Positions 14,192 to 64,000 of a stretch of 64,000 nt of DNA are shown here, in pieces. How positions within the stretch are numbered: position 1 is the stretch's first letter; the number at the start of each line of letters is the position of its first letter. Origin of the DNA: Acidimicrobiia bacterium (GTDB lineage Bacteria > Actinomycetota > Acidimicrobiia > Spongiisociales > ZC4RG35); contig JBBDML010000019.1 in the NCBI GenBank assembly GCA_040878345.1, forward strand, positions 21,373-85,372. Reading direction: 5' to 3'. The position numbers were made by a program, and so were the translations under genes. The notes beneath the pieces are model-generated. The model saw only the letters and a list, made by a program, of their open reading frames with translations, searched no databases and had not been told where the DNA came from.

Positions 14192-14201
14192 GCTCTCTCC
14201 C

Positions 14202-14215
14202 CGAACATATGTTCG
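14202..14215. promoter_or_regulatory. Candidate LexA (SOS) box CGAACATATGTTCG
   Basis: Perfect palindrome with a GAAC-N4-GTTC core, 10 nt upstream of the HNH gene ATG and abutting its SD. Confidence 0.5.
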
Positions 14216-14413
14216 TACAACTATCAGACCCCAGGGACAGAAACAAGAGGGTCGTTCTGGGAGCTTCAGCCGCTGATTGCGCCCGATCGGTGGAAGCCGT
14301 CTGTCGACACACAAGTCAGCGAACTCGAACAGCTGAAGCCATCCACGCTTCCGGTGGGGGAAACAACGGATCCTCTCGGTGTGAGGGGTTCGAGCGCGGG
14401 GGCCAGCGCCCCG

Positions 14414-15535
14414 TCAATCGGATTGCAGCCGGACGGGCTGGACCTCCTGCTCTTCTAGGATCTGACGGAGACGGTCGGCGTTCTCACGGATCCCTTTGGA
14501 CAAGCTCCGTCTCATCAGAGGCCAGAGCAGTCGCTGCTTTCCCCGGAGGCGCTGGAGGCGAATACGCAGCTCGGTGGCTTCCTCCCCGAGCGGCCGGAAC
14601 TCGAAGGTCTGGATCCAGGGCCCAACCATCGGAAGGACGATCCGATGTGTGTAGTAATGGAAGGGGTGCCAGTCGAGGATCTCTTCGGTGATGGCACCGC
14701 GGCCGTGAACGCAATGATTGGTGGTGCCAGGGCCGCGGCGACCGCTCGGGTTGGTCTGGTCGATGTGTGTGAAGTCGGTCTGCCACAGCAGACGCTTCCG
14801 CGGGGAGGTGGAAAAGTCCCACACCACGTTCACCGGAGCCTGGAACTCGGCGGCGAATTCGAATTGTGCCTCGGTAGGGAGGACGAACACTCGCCTCCGC
14901 TCCTGTACGCGGCTCCAGGCCTCCTCCAGGTCTTCGACGTAGCTGCCTACCTCGCCCACGTCGTCATAGCTCTCTCGATGTTCACGCATTCCCAGGATGA
15001 GGGGATCTAGGCCGAGAGCAGTTACACAGGAGTCGGTGAACAGCGCGTAGCCAAGATATCCCAGGCACTCCTTCACGCTGTTCTTGAGAAGGCGGTGGGC
15101 AACGATCACATCGCTCCCAGTCAGCTCCTCGGTCCCGGCCACCACGCTGCGGACGAAACGGCCGTTGTGAGCCACGAACTTGAGGTTGAGGTTGGGAATA
15201 AGCCGGCAGGCGTTGCAGTCGCAAGTCGTTGCCTGCCGGATGTCACGCAAACGTGACCGGAAAGCGAAATACGTTTCGTCGATAGTGTCGAGGAGCGTGG
15301 ACGCCTCGACCTCAGACTCGAGGGCGTAGGCGAAAGTGGCGTCGCCCTCCAGCTTGCTGATCCGCAGAGCTGGTCGCAGACCGCCGACCACGGTCTCAGT
15401 GAGGTCGGCCAGGACGTCCTGGGCGTGCTCGAGCTCGGTGTCGCGAAGATATTGGGTGTAGCCAGAGATGTCGGCGAGCACGAGGCAACCGCTCTCGGCT
15501 GCCGGGATCATCCAATCATGCGATGCGGTTTGCAT
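14414..15535 (-). CDS. DUF2652 (nucleotidyl-cyclase-like) domain fused to a C-terminal SRPBCC domain
   Basis: ATG 15535 with GGGAGAG SD. 'GCLVLADISGYTQYL...KLEGDATFAY' resembles DUF2652 / class III cyclase-like cores. The C-terminal half is START/SRPBCC-like. Confidence 0.6.
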   Translation of the reverse strand: MQTASHDWMIPAAESGCLVLADISGYTQYLRDTELEHAQDVLADLTETVVGGLRPALRISKLEGDATFAYALESEVEASTLLDTIDETYFAFRSRLRDIRQATTCDCNACRLIPNLNLKFVAHNGRFVRSVVAGTEELTGSDVIVAHRLLKNSVKECLGYLGYALFTDSCVTALGLDPLILGMREHRESYDDVGEVGSYVEDLEEAWSRVQERRRVFVLPTEAQFEFAAEFQAPVNVVWDFSTSPRKRLLWQTDFTHIDQTNPSGRRGPGTTNHCVHGRGAITEEILDWHPFHYYTHRIVLPMVGPWIQTFEFRPLGEEATELRIRLQRLRGKQRLLWPLMRRSLSKGIRENADRLRQILEEQEVQPVRLQSD

Positions 15536-15660
15536 GGCTCTCCCGGTGGGCTCGAGCGAATTGTATGGAGTCGGCGCGGTGGGCAGCGAGATCGCGCTGC
15601 CCTTGTCCACATGCATTGAGCTGGCGGTGTCAGCGACAACCCATTCTCTGCGCCATAGTC

Positions 15661-16704
15661 ATGAAGACGCTGACCAAAGAGCGAGCAGCTGTCACTGAAT
15701 ACGCCATCGATCGGGGCGGCCCAACTGCGCTCTTGAACCCCCGAACCGTGTCAAGGTATGGTTGCCCAGCGGGGATCGAGGAGGTGACGGTGGCGGCGTC
15801 TGGCCGCAGCGCCGGCCGACTTGTGCTGGCCGCCTTTTTCGTGGAGGCGGTCCTCGCCGGCGGCAATTCGGTAGCGATCAGGTTCAGCAACCGCGAACTG
15901 GCTCCACTTTGGGGAGCGGGTCTGCGGTTCGCGCTCGCGGCGGTGTTGATCGTGGTCGTGATGGCAGCGTTGAAACTGGCCCTACCTCGTGGAAAGGCCC
16001 TTACGGGTGCGGTGCTCTTTGGTCTATTCCAATTCGCAGGCGCGTTTGGCCTTTACTACTACGCACTCGTTGAGATACATGCCGGACTCGGCCAGACCCT
16101 GCTGGCGCTGGTACCACTCGCAACGCTGATCTTGGCAGTGGCTCAGCGTCAAGAGCGACTTCGCGGAGCGGCTGTTATAGGAACCCTCATTGGGCTTGTG
16201 GGGGTTGGTTTGATCTCACGCGATCCGTTGCGGGGGTCTATACCGCTGATCTCGCTGCTGGCGGTGCTGGGGAGCGTGTTGTGCTTCGCCCAAGCGTTGG
16301 TGCTAGTCCGCCGTTTCCCACCTATCCATCCGGTTGTGCTGACCGCTGTGGGAATGCTGGTGGGCGCGGTGGTGCTGGTAGGCGCGTCTGTCGTGGTAGG
16401 CGAGCCGCTCGCGCTTCCACAGCGCATTGAGACATGGGTGGCGCTCGGCTACGTGGCCGCTTTCGGCTCGGTTGTGGTGTTCCTGATCCACGTGTACGTG
16501 GTTCAGCTCTGGAGCGCGTCTCGTACCGCCTACGTGATGGTGCTCATTCCTTTTGTCACCGTTGTCCTCTCTGCCTGGCTAGATCACGAACCGGTAACCA
16601 ATGGCCTGGTGCTCGGAGGTCTATTGGTGATAGCCGGGGTTTACGTCGGCGCGTTACGGCAGACGCGAGTTTCCTTGACCCGTGCCGGCACAGGCGCGGG
16701 CTAG
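15661..16704 (+). CDS. EamA/DMT-family transporter
   Basis: 10 TM-like segments in two EamA repeats. An alternative start is GTG 15790, preceded by GGAGG. Uses rare ATA/TTA codons. Confidence 0.8.
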   Translation: MKTLTKERAAVTEYAIDRGGPTALLNPRTVSRYGCPAGIEEVTVAASGRSAGRLVLAAFFVEAVLAGGNSVAIRFSNRELAPLWGAGLRFALAAVLIVVVMAALKLALPRGKALTGAVLFGLFQFAGAFGLYYYALVEIHAGLGQTLLALVPLATLILAVAQRQERLRGAAVIGTLIGLVGVGLISRDPLRGSIPLISLLAVLGSVLCFAQALVLVRRFPPIHPVVLTAVGMLVGAVVLVGASVVVGEPLALPQRIETWVALGYVAAFGSVVVFLIHVYVVQLWSASRTAYVMVLIPFVTVVLSAWLDHEPVTNGLVLGGLLVIAGVYVGALRQTRVSLTRAGTGAG

Positions 16705-16868
16705 TCCCTCGAAGAACGTTCACGCACTCTCGCCCGCCGGGCAATACCCTGACTCGAGGACAAGAAACCCGAGGGATGCGGCGCTGTGCAGCGGATCTGC
16801 ACTTACCGCTCCGCCTGTCTTCGGCATGAAGGCGCTGTTCGACGCGACGGCTAGGGGCTCCGTACTTG

Positions 16869-17303
16869 TCAGGTCTCCAGCGTACGCTTGAGATTCTCGA
16901 TGAACTCACCGTTTCGGCGGCGCACCATCATCTTCATCATCGGACTCATCAACGTCATCAGACCACTCGTTTCGATCTGAATGTGACGTGTGACCTGGGT
17001 GCCGCCGCCCGCCTCCTCGAAGATGTGAGTCAGTCTCGGCTTCATGTTGCCCATGTCGGACTGAGACACGATCCGACGGCCAGGCTCGAACTCAACTATC
17101 TCCACCGTCCCCTCGGATGGCGACATGGGCTGAGGTCTGAACTGAAGCTTGTACCTCGTACCCTGGCCAACCTCACCGTCGGTCAGGCGTTCCGCCTCCA
17201 GGATATCGGTGTGCCACTGCGGTTCGTTTTCCATCTCGGCCACGAATGCGAACACCTCACCACGAGGGCGGTTCACCCTTGTAGAAACGGTCACGTCGAT
17301 CAT
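16869..17303 (-). CDS. SRPBCC (polyketide cyclase/START-like) family protein
   Basis: 'MIDVTVSTRVNRPRGEVFAFVAEMENEPQWH' is a typical SRPBCC N-terminus. ATG 17303 has a strong GGAAGGAG SD. The track ORF starts at 17336. Confidence 0.7.
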   Translation of the reverse strand: MIDVTVSTRVNRPRGEVFAFVAEMENEPQWHTDILEAERLTDGEVGQGTRYKLQFRPQPMSPSEGTVEIVEFEPGRRIVSQSDMGNMKPRLTHIFEEAGGGTQVTRHIQIETSGLMTLMSPMMKMMVRRRNGEFIENLKRTLET

Positions 17304-17575
17304 CCCTTTGGCTCCTTCCCACCTGTCGCCCTCCATCTGTTGACAGAGAGATCGGGTAAGGGGCTACGAACCTACTCTGTTCAGCTAGTGGCCAGTCGCC
17401 CAAATAGCTACGCGGTTGCAGCAGCCGAAGCGGTAACTATCGCGCGTCCGTCGCGCGTACGGTGCAATTCACAGTCATCGGCACCGTCCGTAAAACGCCC
17501 TGACCAGCCATTTCAGTCCACGGTCGTCCGCGGAGTCCGCCCTGGCAGCGTTCACACCGCAGAGGTCGGGGAGGC

Positions 17576-18025
17576 TCACGCCGCGTTCCCGCTGCCTCCC
17601 ACCACCAGCCAGGTGCCGAATACCACCAGGGCGATGCCGGCCAATCTTCTCGGGTCGATTGTGTGGGCCTGAGAGAACAACCCGAAATGGTCGATCAGGG
17701 CCCCGAGTATCAGGGTGGAGCCTGTGAAAAGGGTGATGCCACCACCCAAACCCAGGCGGGCGATGACGATCCCCAGTGAGGCCACCACGACCAGTCCCAT
17801 CAAACCGGCGGTGAAGGCCCACCAGGGGACCTCCTTCAAGTCGGACCACTTGCTCCCGCCGAATGCCAGCATGACCAGGCCGATGGCCAGCCCGCCCCCT
17901 CCATAGGTGATGAATGTCGACGCCAGGGTCCCCACCCGGTTCTGCATCACCCCGAGGAATCCCGACTGCAAAGAGCCGGCCAACCCACCGGCCACTCCGA
18001 TGAGGATCACCAAGAACAGGCTCAT
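17576..18025 (-). CDS. Small DMT-superfamily membrane protein (DUF606/YdcZ-like)
   Basis: 150 aa with 5 hydrophobic helices starting 'MSLFLVILIGVAGG'. Its ATG overlaps the upstream gene's TGA (ATGA at 18022-18025). Confidence 0.7.
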   Translation of the reverse strand: MSLFLVILIGVAGGLAGSLQSGFLGVMQNRVGTLASTFITYGGGGLAIGLVMLAFGGSKWSDLKEVPWWAFTAGLMGLVVVASLGIVIARLGLGGGITLFTGSTLILGALIDHFGLFSQAHTIDPRRLAGIALVVFGTWLVVGGSGNAA

Positions 18026-19161
18026 GGCGATCCATCCTGGTCGGCCATCGCCTCGTATTGGCGGATGGTCCCCTCCAGGTAATCGATGGCTTGGTCGTAT
18101 CCCTCGACGGCCACCTCGGTGGTGTAGGTGAGCACCCTGATCAACCAGAGACGGAAGGCCAGGCTCTCCCACGCCGGGTCGCCCAGCACAAAGCGATCGT
18201 GGAGATGGACCAGTATCTCGCCCCACCGTTCGGCATCCATGAACCCATATCGCGCCTCAAACCGGTTGGCGAGCACACCGTCGACCACCCGGGTGGGCAG
18301 CTCCTCCGCCAGGCGCACCTCCTCCGTGCTCCAGTTGGCGGTGAGCAGGCCGACGGTCCGCTCCAGGTCATAGCCCACTGTCTGCTTCAGGTCGTCGGGG
18401 ACCGGGGCCGGTGGGTCGGTTGCCAACTCGATCATCGGAGCGGGCAAACCTCTCAAGGACCTCACCGCGTCGAGGCACTCCACCACCATGGTCCGGATCT
18501 CGTCCAGGGACCCATAAAGGGCGTGGCGCTTGCCTTCGGCCACATTGTGCTCGTAGAGGGGGAGGCCCATGGTGGCGGTGGCATGAGTGATCAGAGTGTC
18601 CACTCCCCAGTCGGAGCGCTCCGCCACCAGGGGATCGGCGGCCAGTGTCGCCACCGCTTCCCGGGTGAGGAAGATCTCCCCGCCCAACGGCTGGCCGAGA
18701 CGGGGGAGCACGGAGCCGGGGAACAGGATCGCCAGCGACGGGCGCGTGACCATCCAGGTGATCATGGCGTCGGTGGATGCCCGCGGGAATCGGTGTCTGA
18801 CGATCTGATATCCGTCGTCCGCCGTCTGCTCGGCGCCGTCGATCCAGCCCTCGTCGAAGTTGGTTATGTCGGCGTCGTAGAAATGGACCCGCTCGAACCC
18901 CTGCTCGGCGGCGTGGCGGAGGGCGGTGTTAAGCCCATCACCCTTTCCGGGGCGGAATCTGCCGATCCGCTCCTGGGGGAAGACCAGGACCGGGGCCCCA
19001 CCCAAACCGGCGGCGATGCCCTCCACCGCCGCCATGGCCTCACCCTGGGTGGCGGCCACCGCCCAAACCGCATCGACCCGCCGATGGGCGGCTGCGATCT
19101 CGAGGTTGGCCCCGACCACCTCCAGGTCCTCCTCCTTGAAAGGGAAGACGATCAGGCTCAA
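18022..19161 (-). CDS. mgs: Mannosylglycerate synthase (GT78, single-step GDP-mannose:D-glycerate mannosyltransferase)
   Basis: TTG start gives 'MSLIVFPFKEED'. The motifs 'RPGKGDGLNTAL', 'FYDADITNF', 'FPRASTDAMITWM', 'QPLGGE', 'SDWGVDT' and 'EGKRHALYG' match the Rhodothermus marinus MGS as I remember it. Confidence 0.75.
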   Translation of the reverse strand: MSLIVFPFKEEDLEVVGANLEIAAAHRRVDAVWAVAATQGEAMAAVEGIAAGLGGAPVLVFPQERIGRFRPGKGDGLNTALRHAAEQGFERVHFYDADITNFDEGWIDGAEQTADDGYQIVRHRFPRASTDAMITWMVTRPSLAILFPGSVLPRLGQPLGGEIFLTREAVATLAADPLVAERSDWGVDTLITHATATMGLPLYEHNVAEGKRHALYGSLDEIRTMVVECLDAVRSLRGLPAPMIELATDPPAPVPDDLKQTVGYDLERTVGLLTANWSTEEVRLAEELPTRVVDGVLANRFEARYGFMDAERWGEILVHLHDRFVLGDPAWESLAFRLWLIRVLTYTTEVAVEGYDQAIDYLEGTIRQYEAMADQDGSP

Positions 19162-19175
19162 GGGCGGGAGGGTTC

Positions 19176-19197
19176 TGTCATGGCCGGTGTCTACTCT
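19176..19197 (+). promoter_or_regulatory. Possible RecA-independent (PafBC-type, RecA-NDp) damage promoter: TGTCAtgg-8nt-TACTCT
   Basis: Partial match to tTGTCRgtg-8nt-TAnnnT at the exact spacing, 21 nt upstream of the herA GTG. A GGAGA SD follows. Confidence 0.25.
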
Positions 19198-19217
19198 CGA
19201 CTCGGGATGGAGACGCT

Positions 19218-20888
19218 GTGATCGAAAAGATGGTCGGGCGGGTCCTGGGGACCAAGGATGCCACCCCCCTCGAGTTCTGGGTGGGTGTGGCCGAAGGTGA
19301 GTTCCTTCAGCTCGACGACGTGGTGGCTCTCGAGCGACTACTGCCGACCGGCGAATTGGTGATGATGTACGGCACCGTGGGCCAAGTGGTGGCTCGTCAT
19401 GAGGGGGCCCGGTTCGACTCCGACGTGTTCCTGATCGAAGAGGGTGTCCTACCTGCCGAGGTGACCGAGACCGCACAGGTCACCGCCACCCGGTTCGAGC
19501 CAGAGGTGTTCGTCCCACCTCGCCCCGGCCAACCGGTGCGGATTGCCCTCGATGATGAGCGCGACCGCGCCCTGTTCTTCGACCGTATGGAGCAGCGGCT
19601 CCCAGTGGGGCTCTCCCGCAATGGTGAGCCGTTCTGGATCAATCTCGAGTTCCTCAATGGGGAGCGGGGGGCACATGTCAATATCTCGGGGATCTCCGGA
19701 GTCGCCACCAAGACCACGTATGCCACCTTCCTGCTCCACTCGTTGTACACCTCCGGGGTCCTCGGGGATGCCGCGGTCAACACCAAGAGCCTGATCTTCA
19801 ACGTCAAGGGCGAGGACCTGTTGCATCTCGATCGGGCCAACAACCGCCTCGGTGGGGAGGAGCGGGCCCGCTACGCCAAGCTCGGCCTCCCTGCCACCCC
19901 GTTCGAGTCGGTGGCGATCTTCGCCCCGCCCCGGCCCGGAGACCCCAACGCCGGCGCCGACGTCAACACCCGTCACGACGTGACATCCTTCTTCTGGACC
20001 CTGGAACGGTTCTGTCACGACGACCTGCTCCCGTTCCTCTTCGCCGACGCCGAGGACGACCGCGCCCAATACACCACGGTGGTCTACAACGTGATGGCCC
20101 ATCTCCGTCAGGCACAGGCCACCGAGACCGGCGCAATGGTGATCGACGGCGTCACCCTGCGGACCTTCCGCCAGCTCGCCGATCTCATCGTGGAGCGAGT
20201 TCAGGACGAGAGCCTCCGCTACCAGTGGGCGGGGCCGGCGATCGGGACCGGGACGGTCAACGCCTTTGTCCGCCGGCTCCTGGGTGCGGTCCGTCACGTG
20301 GAACGTCTCATCAGGGCGGATGTAGCCGACCCGGCCCGGCACGCCATAGCCCTCGAGAGCCAGGTGACGGTGGTCGATCTCCACAACCTCAACGACAGGG
20401 CCAAGCGTTTCGTGGTGGGGGTCACCCTGAAGCGGGCATTCGATGACAAAGAGATGGCGGGCCAGACCCCTGAGCTGTTGTTTGTGGTCCTCGACGAGCT
20501 CAACAAGTACGCCCCGCGTGAAGGGACCAGTCCCATCAAGGAGATCCTCCTCGACATCGCCGAGCGAGGCCGGTCCCTCGGGGTGATACTGATCGGGGCC
20601 CAGCAGACCGCCTCGGAGGTGGAGCGCCGCATCATCGCCAACTCCTCGATCCGCGTGGTGGGCCGGCTCGACTCGGCCGAGGCGGCACGTGAGGAATACG
20701 GGTTCCTCCCCGGGCCCCACCGACAGCGGGCCACCATCATCAAGCCGGGGACCATGCTCCTCAGCCAGCCCGAGATCCCGGTCCCACTCGTCCTCGAGTT
20801 CCCCTTTCCCGCCTGGGCCACCAGACCCTCGGAGGCGGTCGTCCCCAGCGGCAGTGGGGGTCCCGAAGACCCCTTCGAAGGCCTGTAG
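19218..20888 (+). CDS. herA: HerA-type hexameric DNA translocase/helicase ATPase (DUF87)
   Basis: N-terminal barrel-like 'GRVLGTKDATPLEFWVGV', Walker B 'LLFVVLDELNKYAP', 'AERGRSLGVILIGAQQ'. Atypical P-loop 'GISGVATKTT'. Confidence 0.75.
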   Translation: MIEKMVGRVLGTKDATPLEFWVGVAEGEFLQLDDVVALERLLPTGELVMMYGTVGQVVARHEGARFDSDVFLIEEGVLPAEVTETAQVTATRFEPEVFVPPRPGQPVRIALDDERDRALFFDRMEQRLPVGLSRNGEPFWINLEFLNGERGAHVNISGISGVATKTTYATFLLHSLYTSGVLGDAAVNTKSLIFNVKGEDLLHLDRANNRLGGEERARYAKLGLPATPFESVAIFAPPRPGDPNAGADVNTRHDVTSFFWTLERFCHDDLLPFLFADAEDDRAQYTTVVYNVMAHLRQAQATETGAMVIDGVTLRTFRQLADLIVERVQDESLRYQWAGPAIGTGTVNAFVRRLLGAVRHVERLIRADVADPARHAIALESQVTVVDLHNLNDRAKRFVVGVTLKRAFDDKEMAGQTPELLFVVLDELNKYAPREGTSPIKEILLDIAERGRSLGVILIGAQQTASEVERRIIANSSIRVVGRLDSAEAAREEYGFLPGPHRQRATIIKPGTMLLSQPEIPVPLVLEFPFPAWATRPSEAVVPSGSGGPEDPFEGL

Positions 20889-20945
20889 GGGAGCTTCCCC
20901 GACTCTCCCCGAATCTGTCACACCCCGGTCGTACGATCCTGGGGA

Positions 20946-22070
20946 ATGAAGATCCTCCATACCTCCGACTGGCATGTGGGTCGTCGGATGCGGGGACGCG
21001 ACCGAGCCGAGGAGCACCGTGCCGTCCTCTCCGAGGTGTTGTCGGCAGCCGTCTCGAATCAGGTCGACCTGACGGTGGTGGCCGGCGACCTCTTCGACAC
21101 CGGCTCGCCCACCGCCGCCTCCGAGGAGATCGTCTGGACCGCCCTGCTCCAGCTGGCCGAGGTGGCGCCGGTGCTGGTGGTGGGGGGTAACCACGACAAC
21201 CACGCCCGCATCGACGCAGTGGCGCCGCTGCTTCGAATGGGGAGGATCACCGCCCTCGGCGCCCCTCGATCACCTGAAGAGGGAGGTGTGGTCCATCTCG
21301 AGGAGATCGGGGCGCGGGTGGCGTTGCTCCCCTTCGTCTCTCAGAGGGGGATTGTCCGCGCCGAGGACATCATGGCCTCCGACCCCGATCAGAACGCCGG
21401 GGCATACCAGGACCGGTTGCGACGGGTCGTCCACCGGCTCAGTGCCGACATGACCCCAGACACGGTGAACCTCCTGGTGACTCATCTCACCGTCTTCGGG
21501 GCGGAGCTGGGTGGCGGGGAGCGTGAAGCACACGTCTTTGGCTATGCGGTGCCGGCGGCGGTCTTCCCCGGGCATCTCTCCTATGTCGCCCTGGGGCACT
21601 TCCATCGCCAGCAGAAAATCCCTCATCCCGGGGCGGTTTGGTACTCGGGGTCGCCCTTGCAGCTCGACTTCGGGGAGGTCGACGACACCAAGGGGGTGTT
21701 GGTGGTCGAGGCGACACCGGGAAAGCCGGCCCGGGTCACCACGGTCCCGGTGACAAGCGGGCGCAAGCTGGTGACGGTCCGGGGGACCCTCGAGGAAGTC
21801 CTTGCCCGTGCCGACGACCTCGACGATGCCTTTGTGCGTGTGGTCCTGGTGGAGAAGGCCCGGGTGGGTCTGGCCGATGAGGTCAGGATGGCGATACCCG
21901 ACGCCGTCGAGGTGGTCCTCGACTCACCCTTGCAGCCCAGGTCCGATCCCGAGCCCCGCGCCCAGCTCGAGCCAGGCGAGGCCTTTCATCGTTATCTGTC
22001 CGAGAAGGGAGCCGATGACCCCAGGGTCGAGGCTCTCTTCGCCGAGCTGATGGACGAGGTCGCGGTGTGA
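20946..22070 (+). CDS. sbcD: Mre11/SbcD-family nuclease (calcineurin-like phosphoesterase)
   Basis: 'MKILHTSDWHVG', 'VVAGDLFD', 'VVGGNHDN', 'GHFH'. Confidence 0.9.
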   Translation: MKILHTSDWHVGRRMRGRDRAEEHRAVLSEVLSAAVSNQVDLTVVAGDLFDTGSPTAASEEIVWTALLQLAEVAPVLVVGGNHDNHARIDAVAPLLRMGRITALGAPRSPEEGGVVHLEEIGARVALLPFVSQRGIVRAEDIMASDPDQNAGAYQDRLRRVVHRLSADMTPDTVNLLVTHLTVFGAELGGGEREAHVFGYAVPAAVFPGHLSYVALGHFHRQQKIPHPGAVWYSGSPLQLDFGEVDDTKGVLVVEATPGKPARVTTVPVTSGRKLVTVRGTLEEVLARADDLDDAFVRVVLVEKARVGLADEVRMAIPDAVEVVLDSPLQPRSDPEPRAQLEPGEAFHRYLSEKGADDPRVEALFAELMDEVAV

Positions 22071-24439
22071 GGCCGGTGAGGATCGAGGTCGAGGGCTTCT
22101 CCGCCTATCGATCGGCGGTCAGTGTCGACCTCAGCAGACTCCTCGACTCCGACCTCCCCTTCTTCTCGCTGAGCGGGGCGACCGGGGCGGGGAAGTCGAG
22201 CCTGATCGACGCCATGATCTTCGCCCTCTATGGAAGGATCCCCCGACTTGGTGGCACCGCGGTGGCCCCGGTCATCTCGGCCGGCACCGACCGGGCCCGG
22301 GTCAGATTCGACTTCGACGTCGACGGGGTGATCCACACCGCGGTCCGTTTGGCGCAGCGAACGCCCAGCGGTGGCGCAACCGTCAAAGAGGCGCGGCTGG
22401 AGCGGGGCGACGAGGTCCTGGCCGACGGTGCCGACAACGTCACCACTGCGGTGGAGGAGCTGCTCCGGCTGGGATTCGACGACTTCACCCGGACCGTTGT
22501 CCTGCCTCAGGGGGATTTCGCCAGGTTCCTCAATGCCACCAAGGCGGAGCGGCAAGCCCTCCTCCGAGGCATCCTCGGGCTCGAGGTATATGGGAGGGTC
22601 CGGGAGCTGGCCGGCGGGAGACAGGCAGTGGCCTCCGACCGGGCCTCCGGCGCCCACACCCGGCTGGACGCTCTCGAGGTGCCTGCAGAGGCCGACATCG
22701 AGGGGGCCTCGGCCCGTCTCTCCTCTCTGGAAGCCATGGTGGGCCAGATCAGGGATCGAGAGCAGGCTCTCGCCGTCCTGGCCCTCGAGGTCGGTGCCGC
22801 CACCGCCGACGTGACCCGACTCACCGGAGCCAGGGAGAGGTTGGAGGTGCTGGCACCACCCGAGGACCTGGACGAGCTCGGCGAGATGGTGACACTGGCC
22901 CGCTCGACGTTCTCCGACGCCGAGGAGGCTCACGCGGCCGCGGTGGCGGGCGGTCGGGAGATCGAGAAGAGACTGGAGGGGATCCCGGAGCCTGAGACCA
23001 TTGCCCTCGGCAAGCACGATTACCAATCGCTCGACCAGGTCGAGACCCAGCTCGAGGCGTTGGCTGACGACCGGCCGAGGCAAGCGCTGGAGGAGGCCGA
23101 GACCCGGTTGGCCGAGTCGCGCCAGGCTCACCTCGAGGCGGTTGCTCGCCGAAACTCTCTCCACATCTCCCACACCGCACATGCCATCGGGGCGACCCTG
23201 GTGGTGGGCGAGAACTGCCCTGTGTGTCAGCGCCGCGTCGAGGTCTTGCCGGTCGCGGAGACTCCACCGGAGCTGACCCGGGTCGAGAAGGAGTTGGAGA
23301 CCTCGGAAGCCCGGGTGGAGGCCGATCTTGGCGCCGTCGGTCTGGCTCGAGCAGCGATCACCGAGCACGAGACCACCAGGGCCAACCTGGCCGCCACCCG
23401 GGACACCCTGGTCGCCCGATTGTCGGGTGCCCCGAACCGCGAGGAGTTGGCTCGCTTGGAGACCCTGGCCACAGAGTTGAAGGATCAGCTCGCCGGCTCG
23501 CGTCGCACGGTGTCTTCGGCCGAGGAGACCCTGGGTCTTGCCCGTAAGCAGCTCGATGAAATGGCGGCGCGGCAACATGCCATGGGCCGGCTCCTCACCA
23601 CGGCCCAGCTCAAGGTGGCCGACCTGAGCCCCCCGGTGTCGGAGAGCGACGACGTGGTGGTGCAGTGGAAGGACCTGATGACCTGGCGGGCCGAGACTCT
23701 GGACCGTGTGGTCGAGGAGCATGCCGCCCTTCTCGCGCGCTCGGCGGAGGCACTTTCGGCCCACGACTCCGCCCGGGAGGAGCTGGTGGCCGACCTCGCC
23801 ACCGCCGGGCTCGACGCCATCGAGCCCTATTCGGCCACTCTGGCCTCCGAGGTCGAGCGGGCGCGCCATGTAGTCGCCCACCAGCAGAAGACACTTGTTG
23901 ATGCCAACGCGCTAAGCGCCGAGATCGACTCCGAGACCGCCAATGCCGACGTGGCCGCCGCCCTCGCCGGGCATCTCAAGGCAAACGGGTTCGAGCAGTG
24001 GCTGATGGCCGGCGCGCTGGAGACACTGGTGGTCGGGGCCAATGACCTCCTGGCCCAGCTCTCCGAGGGCGGCTACTCCCTCCACTCCCAGGAGGGGAGC
24101 TTCACCATCGTCGATCATCGCAACGCCGACGAGAAGAGATCGGTGTCCACCCTCTCCGGCGGGGAGACCTTCCTGGTTTCGCTGGCCTTGGCCCTCTCAC
24201 TGGCGGAGACCCTGGCTTCTGCCGGTGGCGCCCGGCTCGACGCCATCATCCTCGACGAGGGATTCGGCACCCTCGACGACGAATCGCTCGACACGGTGGC
24301 GTCGGTGTTGGAGGAGCTTGCCGGGAAGGGCCTGATGGTGGGGGTCATCACCCATGTCAAAGAGCTTGCCTCCCGTGCCGCGGTGCGTTTCGAGGTGACA
24401 CGGGAGGCCCGTGGCTCGACGGTCAGCGATATGCCATGA
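22067..24439 (+). CDS. sbcC: Rad50/SbcC-family SMC-like ATPase with zinc hook
   Basis: GTGA overlap with sbcD. Walker A 'GATGAGKSS', long coiled coil, central 'CPVCQR' hook, signature 'LSGGETF', Walker B 'AIILDEGFGTLD'. Confidence 0.9.
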   Translation: MRPVRIEVEGFSAYRSAVSVDLSRLLDSDLPFFSLSGATGAGKSSLIDAMIFALYGRIPRLGGTAVAPVISAGTDRARVRFDFDVDGVIHTAVRLAQRTPSGGATVKEARLERGDEVLADGADNVTTAVEELLRLGFDDFTRTVVLPQGDFARFLNATKAERQALLRGILGLEVYGRVRELAGGRQAVASDRASGAHTRLDALEVPAEADIEGASARLSSLEAMVGQIRDREQALAVLALEVGAATADVTRLTGARERLEVLAPPEDLDELGEMVTLARSTFSDAEEAHAAAVAGGREIEKRLEGIPEPETIALGKHDYQSLDQVETQLEALADDRPRQALEEAETRLAESRQAHLEAVARRNSLHISHTAHAIGATLVVGENCPVCQRRVEVLPVAETPPELTRVEKELETSEARVEADLGAVGLARAAITEHETTRANLAATRDTLVARLSGAPNREELARLETLATELKDQLAGSRRTVSSAEETLGLARKQLDEMAARQHAMGRLLTTAQLKVADLSPPVSESDDVVVQWKDLMTWRAETLDRVVEEHAALLARSAEALSAHDSAREELVADLATAGLDAIEPYSATLASEVERARHVVAHQQKTLVDANALSAEIDSETANADVAAALAGHLKANGFEQWLMAGALETLVVGANDLLAQLSEGGYSLHSQEGSFTIVDHRNADEKRSVSTLSGGETFLVSLALALSLAETLASAGGARLDAIILDEGFGTLDDESLDTVASVLEELAGKGLMVGVITHVKELASRAAVRFEVTREARGSTVSDMP

Positions 24440-25368
24440 GATACACCGTGGAGAACTGGGACTCCGATTACGGGGCCCCCACCGACCCCGAGCTGACCGA
24501 CGCCACCCAGAACGTCGATGTCGGGGTCGAGATGGCGGCCGATCAATGGCGCCCCATCCTGCCGGAATCCCCGGCCGTCGAGGAAGTGCTGTTCGTCGAC
24601 GGGGTCCGTCGGGTCGACGCCAGCCTCTGGATCGACCAACCCCCCGACTTCCCCGGCTTCGCCCTGGCGGCGACCTACGCCGCCGGAGCGGTGAGATGCA
24701 ACTCCCGTGCCGGCCTGGAGGTGGCAGAGGTGGGGCGGGGCCTCTTCACCTCAGCTCTTGCCACCGATATCGAGACCACCGTCGGCACATATGGGGTGAA
24801 GGCCACCAAGGGCAGCACCTCAGAAGAGCTCTGGCTGGGGATACAGCAAAGGATGGGGGACCTCGAGGCCCGGGTGGTTCACCAGGCGGGGGGAGCCGCC
24901 CTGGTGGTGGTCGACGGCCCATTGTCACATGCCAGAGACATCGACAACGCCATCGGGTACATCAAGACCCAGAAGGTGCAGTACCTGCCGCTGGAGCTGC
25001 GACATGTCCTCACCTCGCTCCCTGCCGGCTACCGCACACCGCTGTTCCTCACCACCACCTCATGGAGCCGCTTCTCCTGGTATCTCCGTCTCGCCAACCA
25101 CGACGGGCCCGCCGGTGGGCTGGTGAGATGCGAGATCGACGCCGACAAGCCGGCGGCGGAGGCGGCGCGGATCGCCACCGCGGTGAGCGCCACCCTGCCC
25201 CGTTTCGCCTCGGCCCGCCACAAGGACCCGCGCGCTCCCCAGAACCTCTACCCGATCGGTGGCCTGGAGCGTGACCTGAGACACCGTCTCGGCGACAAGG
25301 ACCTGGCGGTCAGGGCCTTGAGGAGAGCAGCCGCGATGGCGGGCAAGGCCTCAGATCTCGCGTCGTGA
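24436..25368 (+). CDS. nurA: NurA-like 5'-3' nuclease
   Basis: ATGA overlap with rad50. Acidic motifs 'LFVDGVRR', 'LVVVDGPL', then 'GYIKT', 'FSWYLRL', 'LYPIGGLERDL' in NurA-like order. Operon context with herA. Confidence 0.55.
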   Translation: MRYTVENWDSDYGAPTDPELTDATQNVDVGVEMAADQWRPILPESPAVEEVLFVDGVRRVDASLWIDQPPDFPGFALAATYAAGAVRCNSRAGLEVAEVGRGLFTSALATDIETTVGTYGVKATKGSTSEELWLGIQQRMGDLEARVVHQAGGAALVVVDGPLSHARDIDNAIGYIKTQKVQYLPLELRHVLTSLPAGYRTPLFLTTTSWSRFSWYLRLANHDGPAGGLVRCEIDADKPAAEAARIATAVSATLPRFASARHKDPRAPQNLYPIGGLERDLRHRLGDKDLAVRALRRAAAMAGKASDLAS

Positions 25369-28597: not shown

Positions 28598-28740
28598 AGA
28601 TGCCGGCGGGAGAGCCCCGAGTGGGGCGCCGAAGGGGCAACACCTTCCCGGAAACTCTCAGGCGACCTGGACCGACCGGCTGAGGCAGCGCTGAAGGGGA
28701 CGACAGCGGGGAAGGGTCAAGAGACCGCAACACGGAGACC
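28598..28740 (+). promoter_or_regulatory. Glycine riboswitch (single aptamer plus expression platform) in the gcvP 5' leader
   Basis: P1 'GCCGG...CCGGC' encloses 'GGGAGAG...CGCCGAAGGGGCAAC...CTCTCAGGCgacctGGAC' (28602-28680), the conserved glycine-aptamer core. A GGAGA SD precedes the ATG at 28743. Confidence 0.8.
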
Positions 28741-28742
28741 CG

Positions 28743-31568
28743 ATGCCCCAGACCTCCCAGCCCGGCTTCGCCAGCCGACACATCGGCCCGCGACCCTCCG
28801 ACATCGAGCGGATGTTGTCCCTGGTAGGCGCATCCAGTCTCGACGAGTTGGTCGCCACCACCATCCCCGCTTCGATCCTGGACACCAGGTTGGACCTCCC
28901 TCCGGCGATGACCGAGCCGGAGCTGATACGACATCTCGCTGGGATCGCCGGGAAGAACCGGCTGGTGCGATCGTTGATCGGGCTCGGGTATCACGACACC
29001 CACACCCCGGCCGTGATCCAGCGGAACGTTCTCGAGGACCCGGCGTGGTACACCGCCTACACCCCATATCAGCCTGAGATCTCACAGGGCCGTCTCGAGG
29101 CCCTGCTCAACTTCCAGACCATGGTCGCCGATCTCACTGGGCTCGACATCGCCAACGCGTCGCTTCTCGACGAGCCCACTGCGGCCGCCGAGGCGATGGC
29201 GATGGCCCGTCGCCTGCATCGCGGCGACCGTGATGTCTTCTTTGTCGACCCCGACTGTCACCTGCCCACCCGTGCGGTGTTGGAGACCCGGGCACAGGCC
29301 ATCGGTGTCGAGGTCGAGGATCTCGATGATGAAGCCGATCCCACTGTGTCGTTTGGGGCACTCCTCGCCTACCCGGGATCATCCGGGGCCATCCCCGATC
29401 ACGGTGAGACGGTGAATCGGTTCCATGAGGCGGGGGCAATGGTGGTGGTCACCACCGATCTGCTGGCACTGACCTCGATCGTCCCCCCCGGGGAATGGGG
29501 CGCCGACGTCGCCGTCGGGTCGGCGCAGCGGTTCGGGGTCCCCATGGGGTTCGGGGGCCCCCATGCCGCTTTCATCGCCTGTCGCCAGGACCAGGTTCGC
29601 GCCCTACCGGGCCGATTGGTCGGGGTCTCCAGAGACCAGGCCGGCCGGACCGCCTACCGGCTGGCCCTCCAGACACGCGAACAGCACATCCGTCGTGAGA
29701 AGGCGACCTCCAATGTCTGCACCGCACAGGTCTTGCTGGCGGTGGTGGCCGGCCTCTACGCCTGCTGGCATGGCCCCGAGGGAGTGAAGGGGATCGCCGA
29801 CCAGGTCCACGACCTCACGGGGCGGCTTGCCGCATCACTCACGGCCTCCGGTCACCGGCTGGCCAACCCGAGCTGGTTCGACACCCTGACCGTGGTGGTC
29901 CCCGGCCGCGCCGATGAGATCCTGGCTTCCGCCGTCTCATCCGGACTGAATCTCGGACGGGTCGACGCCGACCGGGTCAGGATCGCACTCGACGAGACGT
30001 GTGACACCCGGGTGATCGAGACGATTATCGGCGTCTTCGGTGGGTCCCTGGTAGAGACGCCGGAGCCCGGGATCCCGGACGGCCTGGTCAGGGCCAGCGA
30101 GTTCCTCACCCACCCGGTATTCCACGCCCACCGCTCCGAGCACGAGATGCTGCGGTATCTGCGTCGTCTGGCCGACAAGGACCTGGCCCTCGATCGGACC
30201 ATGATTCCTCTCGGGTCTTGCACCATGAAGCTCAACGCCACCACCGAGATGGTGCCGATGACCTGGCCCGAGTTCGCCGATATCCACCCTTACGCCCCAC
30301 TGGACCAGGCGGAGGGCTACCTGGAGCTGATCAGGGAGCTCGAGGCATACTTGGCGTCGATCACCGGGTATGACCGGGTCTCCCTCCAACCCAATGCCGG
30401 CTCGCAGGGAGAGCTCGCCGGACTGCTCGCCATCGCCGCCTATCACCGTTCGCGAGGCGAGCCCGAGCGGGATGTCTGCCTGATCCCGGCATCGGCCCAT
30501 GGCACCAATGCCGCCTCGGCGGTCATGGCCGGCATGCGGGTCGTGGTGGTCGCCACCGACGAGGCCGGAAACGTCGACCTCGACGACCTGGAGCGGCTGG
30601 CGGCGGAGCACTCGTCCCACCTGGCGGCGGCGATGATCACATACCCGTCGACTCATGGAGTCTTCGAGCCCGGGATGAGGAGGCTCGCCGAGATCGTCCA
30701 CGTCAACGAGGGTCAGGTGTACGTCGACGGCGCAAATCTCAATGCCCTGGTCGGCCTGGCACGGCCCGGCGACTTCGGGGCCGATGTCGGCCATCTCAAT
30801 CTCCACAAGACGTTCACCATTCCCCATGGTGGCGGAGGCCCCGGAATGGGGCCCCTTGGGGTGAAGGAGCACCTTGCCCCGTTCCTCCCTAATCATCCGC
30901 TGGTTGCCGCCGCCGGGCCCGAAACCGGGATCGGGCCGATCTCGGGCGCCCCGTTCGGGTCTGCCGGCATCCTTCCCATCCCCTACGCCTACATTCGGCT
31001 GATGGGAGCCGAGGGGCTTCGTCGGGCGACCCAGGTGGCGATTCTCTCCGCCAACTACCTGGCTCGCCGACTCGAGCCCCATTACCCGGTGCTCTATACC
31101 GGCGAGGGTGGCCGGGTGGCCCACGAGTGCATCCTCGACTTGCGCCCCCTGACCCGGGAGACCGGGGTAACCGCCGAGGACGTGGCGAAACGTCTCGCCG
31201 ACTATGGCTTTCACGCCCCCACCCTCTCCTTCCCGGTGCCGGGGACCCTGATGGTCGAGCCCACCGAGTCGGAGAGCCTCGTGGAGCTCGAGCGCTTCTG
31301 CGAGGCAATGATCGCGATTCGGGAAGAGGCCCGCCGTGTCGGTTCAGGTGAGTGGCCGGCAGGTGACAACCCTCTGGTGCTGGCCCCGCACACCGCCGCG
31401 GACGTCGTCTCCGACAAGTGGGAGCGGTCCTACACCCGAGAGGAAGCGGCATTCCCGGTGCCATGGCTGACGGACTCCAAGTACTGGCCGCCGGTGGGGA
31501 GAGTCGACGGGGCCGGTGGCGACCGAAACCTGATGTGCTCTTGCCCCCCACTGGACGCTTACCGATGA
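28743..31568 (+). CDS. gcvP: Glycine dehydrogenase (decarboxylating), fused P-protein of the glycine cleavage system
   Basis: 941 aa. 'FASRHIGP', '[21 protein letters not shown]', '[16 protein letters not shown]' (PLP-lysine region). Confidence 0.95.
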
Positions 31569-63732: not shown

Positions 63733-64000
63733 GCGGAGCCACTGTCACCGTCATCACCGTCAGTGACGGGGTGAGCGCCGGTGCGAGAGAAGACGGGTCC
63801 GGGGATGCTCTGGCGGCCATCCTGTCCGGTCGTGGGTTTATCGTGACGCGGACGGTGGTACCCGACGAGGCCGACCAGATCTCCGCTGCCATCTCGGAAG
63901 CCGCCTCGGCCAGCTCACTGGTGGTCACCACCGGGGGGACCGGTTTCGGGCCACGCGACGTCACCCCCGAGGCGACGGCCAGGGTGCTCGACCGGGAGGC
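63723..64000 (+). CDS. mogA: MogA/MoaB-type molybdenum cofactor biosynthesis protein (5' part; runs off the window)
   Basis: Not in the ORF track because it is open-ended. Translating from GTG 63723 gives 'VTVITVSDGVSAGAREDGSG...LVVTTGGTGFGPRDVTPEAT', the MoCF_biosynth signature. Confidence 0.7.
   Translation, partial: MGVGGATVTVITVSDGVSAGAREDGSGDALAAILSGRGFIVTRTVVPDEADQISAAISEAASASSLVVTTGGTGFGPRDVTPEATARVLDRE

What the first reader, a model, noticed from the sequence alone, without database searches (positions are those of the whole stretch)
19218..25368. Archaeal-order herA-mre11-rad50-nurA operon in a high-GC bacterium
Four consecutive plus-strand genes encode the following. (1) A HerA-type ATPase. 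(2) An Mre11/SbcD phosphoesterase with DWH, GDLFD and GNHD motifs. (3) A compact 790-aa Rad50/SbcC with Walker A, a central CPVC zinc hook, LSGGE and a D-loop. (4) A 310-aa protein whose acidic motif order (FVDGVRR ... VVVDGPL ... GYIKT ... SWYLRL ... LYPIGG) fits NurA. The last three genes are chained by GTGA/ATGA overlaps, which implies stoichiometric co-translation. From published work, this gene order is the hallmark DNA-end-resection operon of thermophilic archaea. Bacteria normally carry sbcDC alone, or a herA-nurA pair alone. A fused four-gene version in an actinobacterium-like genome could reflect inter-domain transfer. It could also be an uncharacterised bacterial end-resection machine replacing or complementing AddAB/RecBCD/AdnAB. 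HerA partners are also used in several anti-phage systems, so a DNA-targeting defence module is possible. The three options cannot be distinguished from sequence alone.
Basis: partly seen in the sequence, partly recalled or inferred. Interest (0 to 1): 0.72.

Follow-up and report, generated by a model that had tools for sequence, protein, structure and literature searches.

The report
Bacterial HerA–SbcDC–NurA DNA-repair operon
This is a real four-gene DNA-end-processing operon (HerA motor, SbcD/SbcC end-recognition nuclease, NurA nuclease) in an Acidimicrobiia bacterium, but all four parts are bacterial-type and the arrangement is common in this protein family, so it is a new member of a known kind with a likely DNA-damage-inducible promoter.

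Summary
The genes are herA (19218-20888), sbcD (20946-22070), sbcC (22067-24439, central CPVC hook) and nurA (24436-25368).

- HerA and NurA are close relatives of the solved Deinococcus radiodurans HerA-NurA complex (E=5e-140 and 5e-19).
- SbcD and SbcC match bacterial SbcCD much better than archaeal Mre11/Rad50.
- Archaeal HerA and NurA structures are not detected even with profiles. A recent transfer from archaea is therefore not supported.

The arrangement is not rare. It is collinear in nearly all of the 80 related genome loci that are long enough to show it. These come from Acidimicrobiia, Nitriliruptoria, Actinomycetes, Dehalococcoidia, Gemmatimonadota and Saprospiraceae. In a wider metagenome sample, sbcD follows herA in 49 of 66 loci.

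The genomic context is syntenic and housekeeping, not a defence island.

New here: a 22-nt PafBC/RecA-NDp-type DNA-damage promoter motif (TGTC-N12-TANNNT) lies before herA and again before sbcD. It is conserved upstream of herA in 46-60 of 77 loci, against about 0.001-0.014 expected per upstream region.

Best reading: a damage-inducible double-strand-break end-resection module. It is a new member of a known kind.

The parts
19176..19197 (+). PafBC/RecA-NDp-type promoter motif TGTCATGGCCGGTGTCTACTCT (-26 element TGTC plus -10 TACTCT) upstream of herA
   Evidence: Pattern hit. It fits the published consensus tGTCgg(N10)tA(N3)T (PMC8635444) and tTGTCRgtg-8nt-TAnnnT (PMC5656591). The motif is conserved upstream of herA in 46/77 loci (strict) or 60/77 loci (NGTC form).
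19218..20888 (+). herA: bacterial-type HerA hexameric dsDNA translocase/ATPase (556 aa)
   Evidence: Full-length match to D. radiodurans HerA 7f6d_B: E=5.4e-140; profile search E=7.9e-186. Residues K165/T166, E199/D200, D426/E427 and R491 are invariant and R434 is nearly invariant in the family alignment. Close relatives carry the JGI name 'DNA helicase HerA-like ATPase'. No Pfam hit for the window protein.
20916..20937 (+). Second PafBC/RecA-NDp-type promoter motif TGTCACACCCCGGTCGTACGAT in the herA-sbcD spacer. The -10 ends 8 nt before the sbcD ATG, which suggests a leaderless transcript.
   Evidence: The motif is present in the same spacer in 22/74 loci (strict) or 25/74 loci (relaxed).
20946..22070 (+). 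sbcD: Mre11-family nuclease of the bacterial SbcD type (374 aa)
   Evidence: TIGR00619 sbcd 157.7 bits (cut-off 77.65), against archaeal Mre11 models at 34-49 bits. E. coli SbcD structures E=1e-30, against P. furiosus Mre11 E=1e-11. Metallophos domain plus a borderline SbcD_C domain. Motifs DWH, GDLFD, GNHD and GHFH are present.
22067..24439 (+). sbcC: compact Rad50/SbcC ABC-ATPase (790 aa) with coiled coil
   Evidence: TIGR00618 sbcc E=2.5e-70, against archaeal Rad50 models E=1e-14 to 1e-20. E. coli SbcC 6s6v_C E=3.9e-40. Walker A, LSGGE and DEGFG are present. Median length of orthologues in related loci is 793 aa.
23216..23227 (+). Zinc-hook codons CPVC (aa 384-387) at the apex of the SbcC coiled coil
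   Evidence: A central CPxC is conserved in 56/60 complete SbcC ORFs of related loci.
24436..25368 (+). nurA: bacterial-type NurA nuclease (310 aa)
   Evidence: D. radiodurans NurA 7f6d_H E=5.1e-19 and T. maritima TM1739 (1zup) E=1.6e-6. Family profile search E=2.9e-42 and 4.2e-16. 13 of 23 family members hit Pfam NurA; the window protein is sub-threshold at 18.2 bits against a 21-bit cut-off. W8, D55, D160, K177 and R266 are invariant and correspond to DrNurA W8, D53, K201 and R309, which were shown to be essential (PMC9960219). NCBI names close relatives 'DNA double-strand break repair nuclease NurA'.

Best explanation
The locus encodes a bacterial-type, probably DNA-damage-inducible machine for processing DNA double-strand-break ends.

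The mechanism below is inferred from homologues.
1. The SbcD2-SbcC2 complex recognises, tethers and endo/exonucleolytically opens broken, blocked or hairpin DNA ends. It uses ATP, and its coiled-coil arms are joined by the CPVC zinc hook.
2. A HerA hexamer then threads the duplex through its pore, using ATP, into a NurA dimer docked on the HAS-barrel face.
3. The N-terminal Trp8/pin of NurA splits the strands. Its RNase-H-like sites (D55, D160, K177, R266) degrade the 5' strand. This leaves a 3' tail for RecA.

Transcription appears to start from two PafBC-type 'sigma-adaptation' promoters. One lies before herA. The other, apparently leaderless, lies before sbcD. The start/stop overlaps between sbcD, sbcC and nurA suggest translational coupling.

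Shown here: the gene identities, the conserved catalytic residues, the conservation of gene order, and the conservation and enrichment of the promoter motif.

Inferred: physical cooperation between SbcCD and HerA-NurA, induction by DNA damage, and a role in homologous recombination.
For: Identity of the proteins:
- HerA and NurA match the solved DrHerA-NurA complex over their full lengths.
- Residues shown by mutagenesis to be essential in D. radiodurans are invariant in the family alignments.
- SbcD and SbcC carry all nuclease and ABC-ATPase motifs and the zinc hook.

Selected linkage:
- herA-sbcD-sbcC-nurA is collinear in nearly all genome loci that are long enough to show it, across several classes and phyla.
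- The same order occurs in Streptomyces and Nonomuraea. The order nurA-herA-sbcD-sbcC occurs on a cyanobacterial plasmid.
- In a metagenome sample, 49 of 66 loci have sbcD directly after herA.

Regulation:
- TGTC-N12-TANNNT lies before herA and before sbcD.
- Of 87 strict hits in 1.29 Mb, 68 fall in these two positions. Background is 0.0012 per 160 nt.
- The relaxed form is present in 60 of 77 loci.
- The motif is absent from the non-actinobacterial loci.
- The remaining hits precede a RecQ-family helicase, RmuC and DUF222-HNH genes.
- The motif equals the published PafBC consensus.

Context:
- Flanks are syntenic in relatives: mannosylglycerate synthase, EamA, GpsA, YchF and GcvP.
- The rest of the window is metabolic and housekeeping.
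Against: - There are no functional data for this lineage.
- In D. radiodurans and Thermus, herA/nurA mutants have mild or unclear repair phenotypes (PMC4663267; PMC5448004). An end-resection role in bacteria is therefore not established.
- The presence of pafBC in this genome was not tested.
- The motif is missing in about 20% of related loci and in the Streptomyces and Nonomuraea copies.
- The NurA structure prediction failed (pLDDT 44). The fold is therefore inferred from sequence homology only.
- The window NurA and SbcC score below the curated cut-offs of Pfam NurA and TIGR00618.
Confidence: 0.72

Rival explanations
1. An anti-phage or anti-plasmid defence module. A HerA motor is coupled to nucleases that destroy foreign linear DNA ends, as RecBCD does and as HerA-Sir2 and HerA-DUF4297 systems do.
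For: - Weak PADLOC hits cover the HerA ATPase core (HerA models E=3.5e-8 and weaker; mad8 E=1e-10). SbcC hits mad3 and LmuB.
- After DrHerA, the next PDB matches are defence HerAs, at E around 1e-2 to 1e-5.
- The Streptomyces plasmid copy lies beside ImmA/IrrE and TIGR02677-80-type genes.
- Blackwood et al. speculated about a genome-guarding role for archaeal HerA-NurA (PMC3326311).
Against: - NurA has no PADLOC match, and no known system architecture is matched.
- The locus sits in a conserved syntenic housekeeping context in many species.
- HerA is 65-83% identical across classes, unlike fast-evolving, patchily distributed defence genes.
- Only remote HerA relatives (30% identity or less) are found in phages, and few on plasmids.
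- The promoter motif is the DNA-damage type.
Confidence: 0.08
2. The whole four-gene operon was acquired recently from thermophilic archaea by horizontal transfer.
For: - The gene order herA-mre11-rad50-nurA is the same as in Sulfolobus and Pyrococcus (and established knowledge).
- Thermus HerA has been described as of archaeal origin (PMC5448004).
Against: - SbcD scores 158 bits against bacterial models and 49 bits or less against archaeal ones. SbcC scores 238 bits against 73 bits or less. The PDB ranking runs E. coli, then Thermotoga, then archaea.
- Archaeal HerA (4D2I) and archaeal NurA (2YGK, 3TAI) are not retrieved at E<=1 and E<=10, even with family profiles.
- GC content is uniform with the flanks.
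- The operon is inherited with syntenic flanks across the class.
- A second common order, nurA-herA-sbcD-sbcC, exists in the same family.
Confidence: 0.03
3. A module for a different DNA transaction. Candidates are processing of hairpins, stalled forks or protein-blocked ends at replication, or DNA pumping/segregation as once proposed for HerA-FtsK ATPases. Under this reading it is not for recombinational double-strand-break resection.
For: - E. coli SbcCD is best known for cleaving hairpins and protein-blocked ends (established knowledge; PMC3326311 reference list).
- D. radiodurans HerA-NurA contributes little to radiation resistance and interacts with RecJ (PMC4663267).
- Koonin and Wolf describe HerA-NurA as partition machinery (PMC2588523).
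Against: - drNurA-HerA produces 3' tails in vitro, and mutants lose FUV/MMC resistance (PMC9960219).
- The damage-type promoter points to a repair role.
- This rival overlaps mechanistically with the best explanation rather than excluding it.
Confidence: 0.12

Closest known systems
Deinococcus radiodurans HerA-NurA complex (PDB 7F6D; PMC9960219)
   Same: HerA aligns over its full length at roughly 55-60% identity (E=5e-140). The unusual GVATKT P-loop, Walker B DE, pore arginines and TR-motif region are the same. NurA shares W8, the pin region, and the equivalents of D53, K201 and R309.
   Different: In Deinococcus and Thermus, nurA and herA form a two-gene unit and sbcCD lies elsewhere. Here sbcD and sbcC are inserted between herA and nurA. 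The window NurA is shorter than the solved DrNurA chain (310 aa against 369 residues). The promoter is PafBC-type rather than Deinococcus RDRM/DdrO-type; the Deinococcus regulation is stated from established knowledge and was not tested here.
Archaeal herA-mre11-rad50-nurA operon (Sulfolobus, Pyrococcus)
   Same: The four functions, the gene order and the tight operon structure are the same. The presumed division of labour is also the same: Mre11-Rad50 opens the end and HerA-NurA carries out long-range resection.
   Different: All four proteins here are bacterial-type. The archaeal HerA and NurA structures are too distant to be detected by sequence profiles. SbcD and SbcC are closer to E. coli SbcCD. 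In this lineage the operon is not tied to thermophily.
Oceanithermus profundus nurA-hepA(herA)-sbcD-sbcC cluster (noted in PMC5448004) and the cyanobacterial plasmid AP018315 cluster
   Same: Bacterial-type HerA-NurA is physically linked to SbcDC.
   Different: The gene order is nurA-herA-sbcD-sbcC rather than herA-sbcD-sbcC-nurA. Both orders are common in metagenomes: 9 against 7 of 25 informative loci.
E. coli SbcCD (PDB 6S6V)
   Same: This is the best structural match for both SbcD and SbcC. The nuclease and ABC-ATPase motifs and the zinc hook are shared.
   Different: SbcC here is 790 aa against 1048 aa, so the coiled coil is much shorter. It scores below the TIGR00618 cut-off (237.6 against 478.5 bits). 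It is also operonic with HerA and NurA.
Mycobacterial PafBC regulon promoters (RecA-NDp)
   Same: A 22-nt bipartite motif, tGTCgg-N10-tA-N3-T, with a -26 element and a -10 element and no -35 element.
   Different: The positions after GTC are mostly A/C-C-A-C-C-C rather than gg. The regulator was not identified in this genome, and no expression data exist.

Membership tests
Bacterial-type HerA (DrHerA family, FtsK-HerA superfamily) | Full-length sequence homology to a solved HerA (HAS-barrel, RecA-like and helix-bundle domains) | tested here: met
   7f6d_B E=5.4e-140 over residues 5-541. Profile search E=7.9e-186.
Bacterial-type HerA (DrHerA family, FtsK-HerA superfamily) | Walker A Lys/Thr, the acidic residue after beta2, Walker B Asp-Glu and the pore arginines | tested here: met
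   K165/T166, E199/D200, D426/E427, R434 and R491 align with DrHerA K175/T176, D220, D487/E488, R495 and R552. They are invariant or nearly invariant in 25 sequences.
Bacterial-type HerA (DrHerA family, FtsK-HerA superfamily) | Match to the curated HerA domain models (Pfam DUF87 / HAS-barrel) | tested here: not met
   No Pfam family at E<=0.01. The precomputed Pfam field is empty for all 120 relatives. The curated models evidently do not cover this clade.
NurA nuclease | Homology to structurally solved NurA proteins | tested here: met
   DrNurA E=5.1e-19 and TM1739 E=1.6e-6. Profile search E=2.9e-42 and 4.2e-16.
NurA nuclease | Pfam NurA (PF09376) above the gathering score | tested here: inconclusive
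   The window protein scores 18.2 bits against a 21-bit cut-off. However, 13 of 23 orthologues match, best E=6.2e-8, and many close relatives carry PF09376 in the precomputed data.
NurA nuclease | Catalytic and DNA-handling residues (the Asp of the RNase-H-like site, Lys, Arg, and the N-terminal Trp/pin) | tested here: met
   W8, D55, D160, K177 and R266 are invariant in 23 sequences. They align with DrNurA W8, D53, K201 and R309.
NurA nuclease | RNase-H-like fold and toroidal dimer | tested here: inconclusive
   The AlphaFold2 model built from a shallow alignment (all sequences 78% identical or more) had pLDDT 43.9, so no fold search was run. The fold is inferred from homology only.
SbcD / Mre11 | Calcineurin-like phosphoesterase motifs and an SbcD family model above cut-off | tested here: met
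   TIGR00619 157.7 bits against a 77.65-bit cut-off. Metallophos E=3.5e-14. DWH, GDLFD, GNHD and GHFH are present.
SbcC / Rad50 | Split ABC-ATPase head (Walker A, signature LSGGE, Walker B/D-loop) separated by a coiled coil with a central CxxC zinc hook | tested here: met
   The hook is conserved in 56/60 orthologues.
SbcC / Rad50 | Curated SbcC model (TIGR00618) above cut-off | tested here: not met
   237.6 bits against a 478.5-bit cut-off, with two matched stretches. This is consistent with the much shorter coiled coil (790 aa).
Archaeal HerA-Mre11-Rad50-NurA operon | Gene order herA-mre11-rad50-nurA in one transcription unit | tested here: met
   Order and overlaps confirmed. The archaeal order is as listed in PMC4351679. 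However, a second promoter-like motif lies before sbcD.
Archaeal HerA-Mre11-Rad50-NurA operon | Proteins of the archaeal orthologous groups | tested here: not met
   Archaeal Mre11 and Rad50 models score three to five times lower than the bacterial ones. Archaeal HerA and NurA structures are not retrieved.
PafBC (RecA-NDp) DNA-damage regulon | Promoter with GTC at about -26, 12 nt after TGTC, then TAnnnT, and no -35 element | tested here: met
   Sites at 19176-19197 and 20916-20937. No sigma-70 consensus promoter was found. Conservation and enrichment are shown.
PafBC (RecA-NDp) DNA-damage regulon | The genome encodes PafB/PafC, and the genes are induced by DNA damage | not tested
   Only 64 kb of the genome is available and no expression data exist. 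Indirect support: the same motif precedes RecQ-family, RmuC and DUF222-HNH genes in related loci.
Known HerA-containing anti-phage systems (PADLOC) | Family-level match of the ATPase and its effector partner | tested here: not met
   HerA gives only weak partial hits to the C-terminal core, and NurA gives none.

The most novel reading that the evidence does not exclude
Bacterial-type HerA-NurA may normally be an SbcCD-coupled machine. The well-studied Deinococcus and Thermus pairs would then be the unlinked exception. In Acidimicrobiia, Nitriliruptoria and relatives the machine may be a core member of a PafBC-like DNA-damage regulon and may serve as the main double-strand-break end-resection pathway. 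That would make it a bacterial counterpart of the archaeal MR-HerA-NurA system. The identical gene order would then reflect either very ancient common ancestry of the whole operon or convergent selection for assembly order.
Probability: 0.3. Interest if true: 0.6.

Novelty: new member of a known kind. Interest (0 to 1): 0.38.

Why it matters
The role of HerA-NurA in bacteria is still unclear. It has been studied only in Deinococcus and Thermus, where the genes are not linked to sbcCD and the mutant phenotypes are mild.

This survey shows two things. First, in most members of the family HerA-NurA is operonic with SbcDC, in two recurrent gene orders. Second, in one large actinobacterial radiation the cluster carries a conserved DNA-damage-type promoter.

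Together these give a concrete, testable hypothesis: SbcCD hands DNA ends to HerA-NurA, as Mre11-Rad50 is thought to do in archaea. They also point to tractable hosts, such as Streptomyces and Nonomuraea copies, in which to test it.

For this particular window, however, the locus is an ordinary, vertically inherited member of that family.

Tried and rejected
1. Structure test of NurA. It gave pLDDT 43.9, so no Foldseek search was run. I relied instead on sequence and profile homology to two solved NurA structures.
2. Pfam and NCBIfam gave nothing useful for HerA. The PDB sequence search resolved its identity.
3. I could not read Iyer et al. 2004 or Constantinesco et al. 2004; neither is held. 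I therefore cannot say whether they already listed bacterial four-gene clusters.
4. A recent archaeal origin was considered and rejected.
5. A defence-island context was considered and rejected for this window.
6. The 1.5-4.4 kb inserts between herA and sbcD in some loci are unrelated housekeeping genes: an oxidoreductase, an ECF sigma factor and a DsbA-like protein. They are not accessory components.
7. The other two motif hits in the window were not pursued. The one at 63823 lies inside a coding region and is probably chance. The one at 16867 is unresolved.
8. The strict motif is not present upstream of the Streptomyces and Nonomuraea copies.
9. The simple sigma-70 and terminator scan found no consensus promoter, and its two terminator-like hits match the number expected from shuffles.
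Full report
**Observation.** The four plus-strand ORFs exist exactly as described: 19218-20888 (556 aa), 20946-22070 (374 aa), 22067-24439 (790 aa) and 24436-25368 (310 aa).
- SbcD has DWH, GDLFD and GNHD.
- SbcC has GATGAGKS, a mid-protein CPVC (aa 384-387), LSGGE and DEGFG.
- NurA has FVDGVRR, VVVDGPL, GYIKT, SWYLRL and LYPIGG.

The sbcD/sbcC junction is GTGA and the sbcC/nurA junction is ATGA. herA and sbcD are 57 nt apart. GC content across the locus (0.66-0.69) matches that of the window.

**Protein identities.** Pfam gives nothing for the first protein. A search of PDB sequences shows it is a full-length homologue of Deinococcus radiodurans HerA (7f6d_B, E=5.4e-140, residues 5-541). The unusual P-loop GISGVATKT is the same.

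The residues that PMC9960219 shows to be functionally important in drHerA have equivalents here: K175/T176, D220, D487/E488, R495 and R552. The equivalents are K165/T166, D200, D426/E427, R434 and R491. All are invariant or nearly invariant in 25 family members.

The fourth protein matches DrNurA (7f6d_H, E=5.1e-19) and Thermotoga TM1739/1ZUP (E=1.6e-6). A family profile raises these to 2.9e-42 and 4.2e-16. The window protein falls just below the Pfam NurA cut-off. Even so, 13 of 23 orthologues match the model, and NCBI already names close relatives 'DNA double-strand break repair nuclease NurA'.

W8, D55, D160, K177 and R266 are invariant in NurA. They correspond to the drNurA residues W8, D53, K201 and R309, whose mutation abolishes or impairs activity.

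An AlphaFold2 model was uninformative (pLDDT 44) because only near-identical sequences could be supplied. The RNase-H-like fold therefore rests on homology, not on a fold comparison.

SbcD passes the TIGR00619 cut-off. SbcC has all the head motifs and the hook, but its short coiled coil keeps it below the TIGR00618 cut-off.

**Bacterial or archaeal?** SbcD scores about 158 bits against bacterial SbcD models and 49 bits or less against archaeal Mre11 models. SbcC scores 238 bits against 73 bits or less. In the PDB the ranking runs E. coli SbcCD, then Thermotoga, then Methanocaldococcus and Pyrococcus.

Archaeal HerA and NurA structures are not retrieved at permissive thresholds, even with family profiles. 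After DrHerA, the next HerA matches are anti-phage HerAs at marginal E-values.

The gene order matches the archaeal one, herA, mre11, rad50, nurA (PMC4351679). The parts, however, are bacterial. A recent inter-domain transfer is not supported. Whether the shared order is ancient or convergent cannot be decided here.

**How common is it?** A scan of one genome per species with HerA gave at least 581 confirmed relatives. The best 80 loci are mostly Acidimicrobiia and Nitriliruptoria. They also include a complete Dehalococcoidia chromosome, Gemmatimonadota, Saprospiraceae and the cultured Salinilacustrithrix flava.

tblastn with the four window proteins shows herA-sbcD-sbcC-nurA collinear in nearly every locus long enough to tell. 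A few loci have unrelated housekeeping genes inserted between herA and sbcD.

The same order occurs on a Streptomyces linear plasmid and in Nonomuraea. A cyanobacterial plasmid has nurA-herA-sbcD-sbcC, the order already noted for Oceanithermus (PMC5448004).

A broader metagenome sample used HerA proteins 44-81% identical to the window's. In it, sbcD lies directly after herA in 49 of 66 loci. Of 25 fully informative loci:
- 9 are nurA-herA-sbcD-sbcC.
- 7 are herA-sbcD-sbcC-nurA.
- 3 are nurA-herA only.
- 5 are herA with no detected partner.
- 1 has another arrangement (nurA-herA-sbcC).

The family comprises 492 clusters at 50% identity with E<=1e-30.

Linkage to SbcDC is therefore the rule for this HerA family. 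The studied Deinococcus and Thermus pairs are the minority. I found no paper describing the cluster in Actinomycetota. [quoted passage not shown]

**Context.** The flanks are a divergently transcribed mannosylglycerate synthase, EamA transporters, gpsA, ychF, and a glycine riboswitch followed by gcvP. These flanks are syntenic in the nearer relatives. The rest of the window is metabolic. No tRNA genes or integrases were found, and no known defence-system architecture is matched.

The sequence TGTCATGGCCGGTGTCTACTCT (19176-19197) lies 20 nt upstream of the herA start. The sequence TGTCACACCCCGGTCGTACGAT (20916-20937) lies in the herA-sbcD spacer, and its -10 ends 8 nt before the sbcD ATG.

Both fit the 22-nt PafBC/RecA-NDp consensus. 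That consensus is written tTGTCRgtg-8nt-TAnnnT in PMC5656591 and tGTCgg(N10)tA(N3)T in PMC8635444. It consists of a -26 element plus a canonical -10, with no -35 element. No sigma-70 consensus promoter is present.

Across the window plus the 80 genome loci (1.29 Mb), the strict pattern occurs 87 times on both strands. Of these, 68 lie within 160 nt upstream of herA (46 of 77 loci) or of sbcD (22 of 74 loci). The background is 0.0012 per 160 nt. With NGTC in place of TGTC, 60 of 77 loci have the motif upstream of herA, against 0.014 expected.

The surrounding intergenic sequence is otherwise diverged. The non-actinobacterial loci lack the motif. The remaining strict hits precede a RecQ-family helicase, RmuC, DUF222-HNH and a DUF559 endonuclease-like gene.

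This is the pattern expected of a lineage-specific DNA-damage regulon. It argues for a repair role. Whether the genome encodes PafBC was not tested, and the Streptomyces and Nonomuraea copies lack the strict motif.

**Mechanism (inferred).** By homology with the E. coli SbcCD and D. radiodurans HerA-NurA structures and biochemistry, the likely sequence is as follows.
1. SbcD2C2 senses and opens DNA ends.
2. A HerA hexamer translocates the duplex into a NurA dimer.
3. The Trp8/pin of NurA separates the strands, and the nuclease sites degrade the 5' strand to leave a 3' tail for RecA.

The overlaps between sbcD, sbcC and nurA fit translational coupling. The second promoter would allow sbcD-sbcC-nurA to be expressed apart from herA. 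Direct contact between SbcCD and HerA, reported for archaeal Mre11-HerA (cited in PMC4663267), is an inference here.

**Verdict.** It is not an archaeal import and it is not rare. It is a vertically inherited member of a widespread bacterial HerA-NurA-SbcDC cluster family whose existence was already noted in one bacterium. The added value lies in the family-wide linkage statistics and the conserved damage-type promoter. Interest is moderate.

Noticed in passing
window 19207-19221: A 4-codon mini-ORF, ATGGAGACGCTGTGA, starts 9 nt after the -10 TACTCT and overlaps the herA GTG start as GTGA. In relatives (L002, L007-L009) the ATG at the equivalent place is in frame with herA and looks like a leaderless start. 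In this window herA translation may therefore depend on re-initiation, or may start at the internal ATG at 19230.
   Followed up: partly
window 28598-28684 (+): A glycine riboswitch aptamer (Rfam RF00504, 52.7 bits) lies directly upstream of the glycine dehydrogenase gene gcvP (28743-31568). Only a single aptamer was detected.
   Followed up: no
window 12410-14314 (-): A DUF222 + HNH endonuclease gene (REP13E12-like). A homologue in L004 (3919-5031) is preceded by two tandem PafBC-type motifs. No such motif was found before the window copy.
   Followed up: partly
window 18022-19161 (-): A mannosylglycerate synthase gene (MGS_GT + MGS_C) is transcribed divergently from herA, with only about 56 nt between the likely starts. 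The adjacency is conserved in about 17 related loci. The long ORF call (to 19476) overextends into herA.
   Followed up: partly
L052:6860-8926 (-), L040:96-1172 (-), L067:8073-8987 (-): In related loci the same TGTC-N12-TANNNT motif precedes a RecQ-family helicase, an RmuC recombination protein and a DUF559/REase-like gene. This hints at a wider damage regulon in these lineages.
   Followed up: partly
L081 (Streptomyces sp. BB1-1-1 plasmid NZ_CP134205, 411754-431403): The plasmid-borne herA-sbcD-SMC(1117 aa)-nurA copy is flanked by an ImmA/IrrE metallopeptidase and TIGR02678/TIGR02680/DUF2397 genes, and is followed by a 'helicase associated domain' protein. This context differs from the chromosomal one and may be defence-related.
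   Followed up: no
L004, L016, L023-L025, L032, L041 (between herA and sbcD): Unrelated genes totalling 1.5-4.4 kb (a pyridine-nucleotide disulfide oxidoreductase, an ECF sigma factor, a DsbA-like thioredoxin, DUF6629) are inserted between herA and sbcD. In several of these loci sbcD keeps its own PafBC-type motif about 28 nt upstream.
   Followed up: partly
window 14000-18000: GC content dips to 0.61-0.62, against about 0.66 elsewhere. The stretch holds DUF2652/polyketide-cyclase, EamA and YdcZ-type genes and an unassigned ORF (16866-17672). A further strict motif hit lies at 16867-16888.
   Followed up: no
window 19449-21203 (-), 21992-23881 (-), 18058-19221 (+): Long ORFs (387-629 aa) lie antisense to or overlap the real genes. 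The one checked (18058-19221) has no family match and a low-complexity translation. They look like high-GC artefacts, not genes.
   Followed up: partly
window 509-3188 (+): Two adjacent dynamin-like / MMR_HSR1 GTPase genes, possibly a bacterial dynamin-like pair.
   Followed up: no
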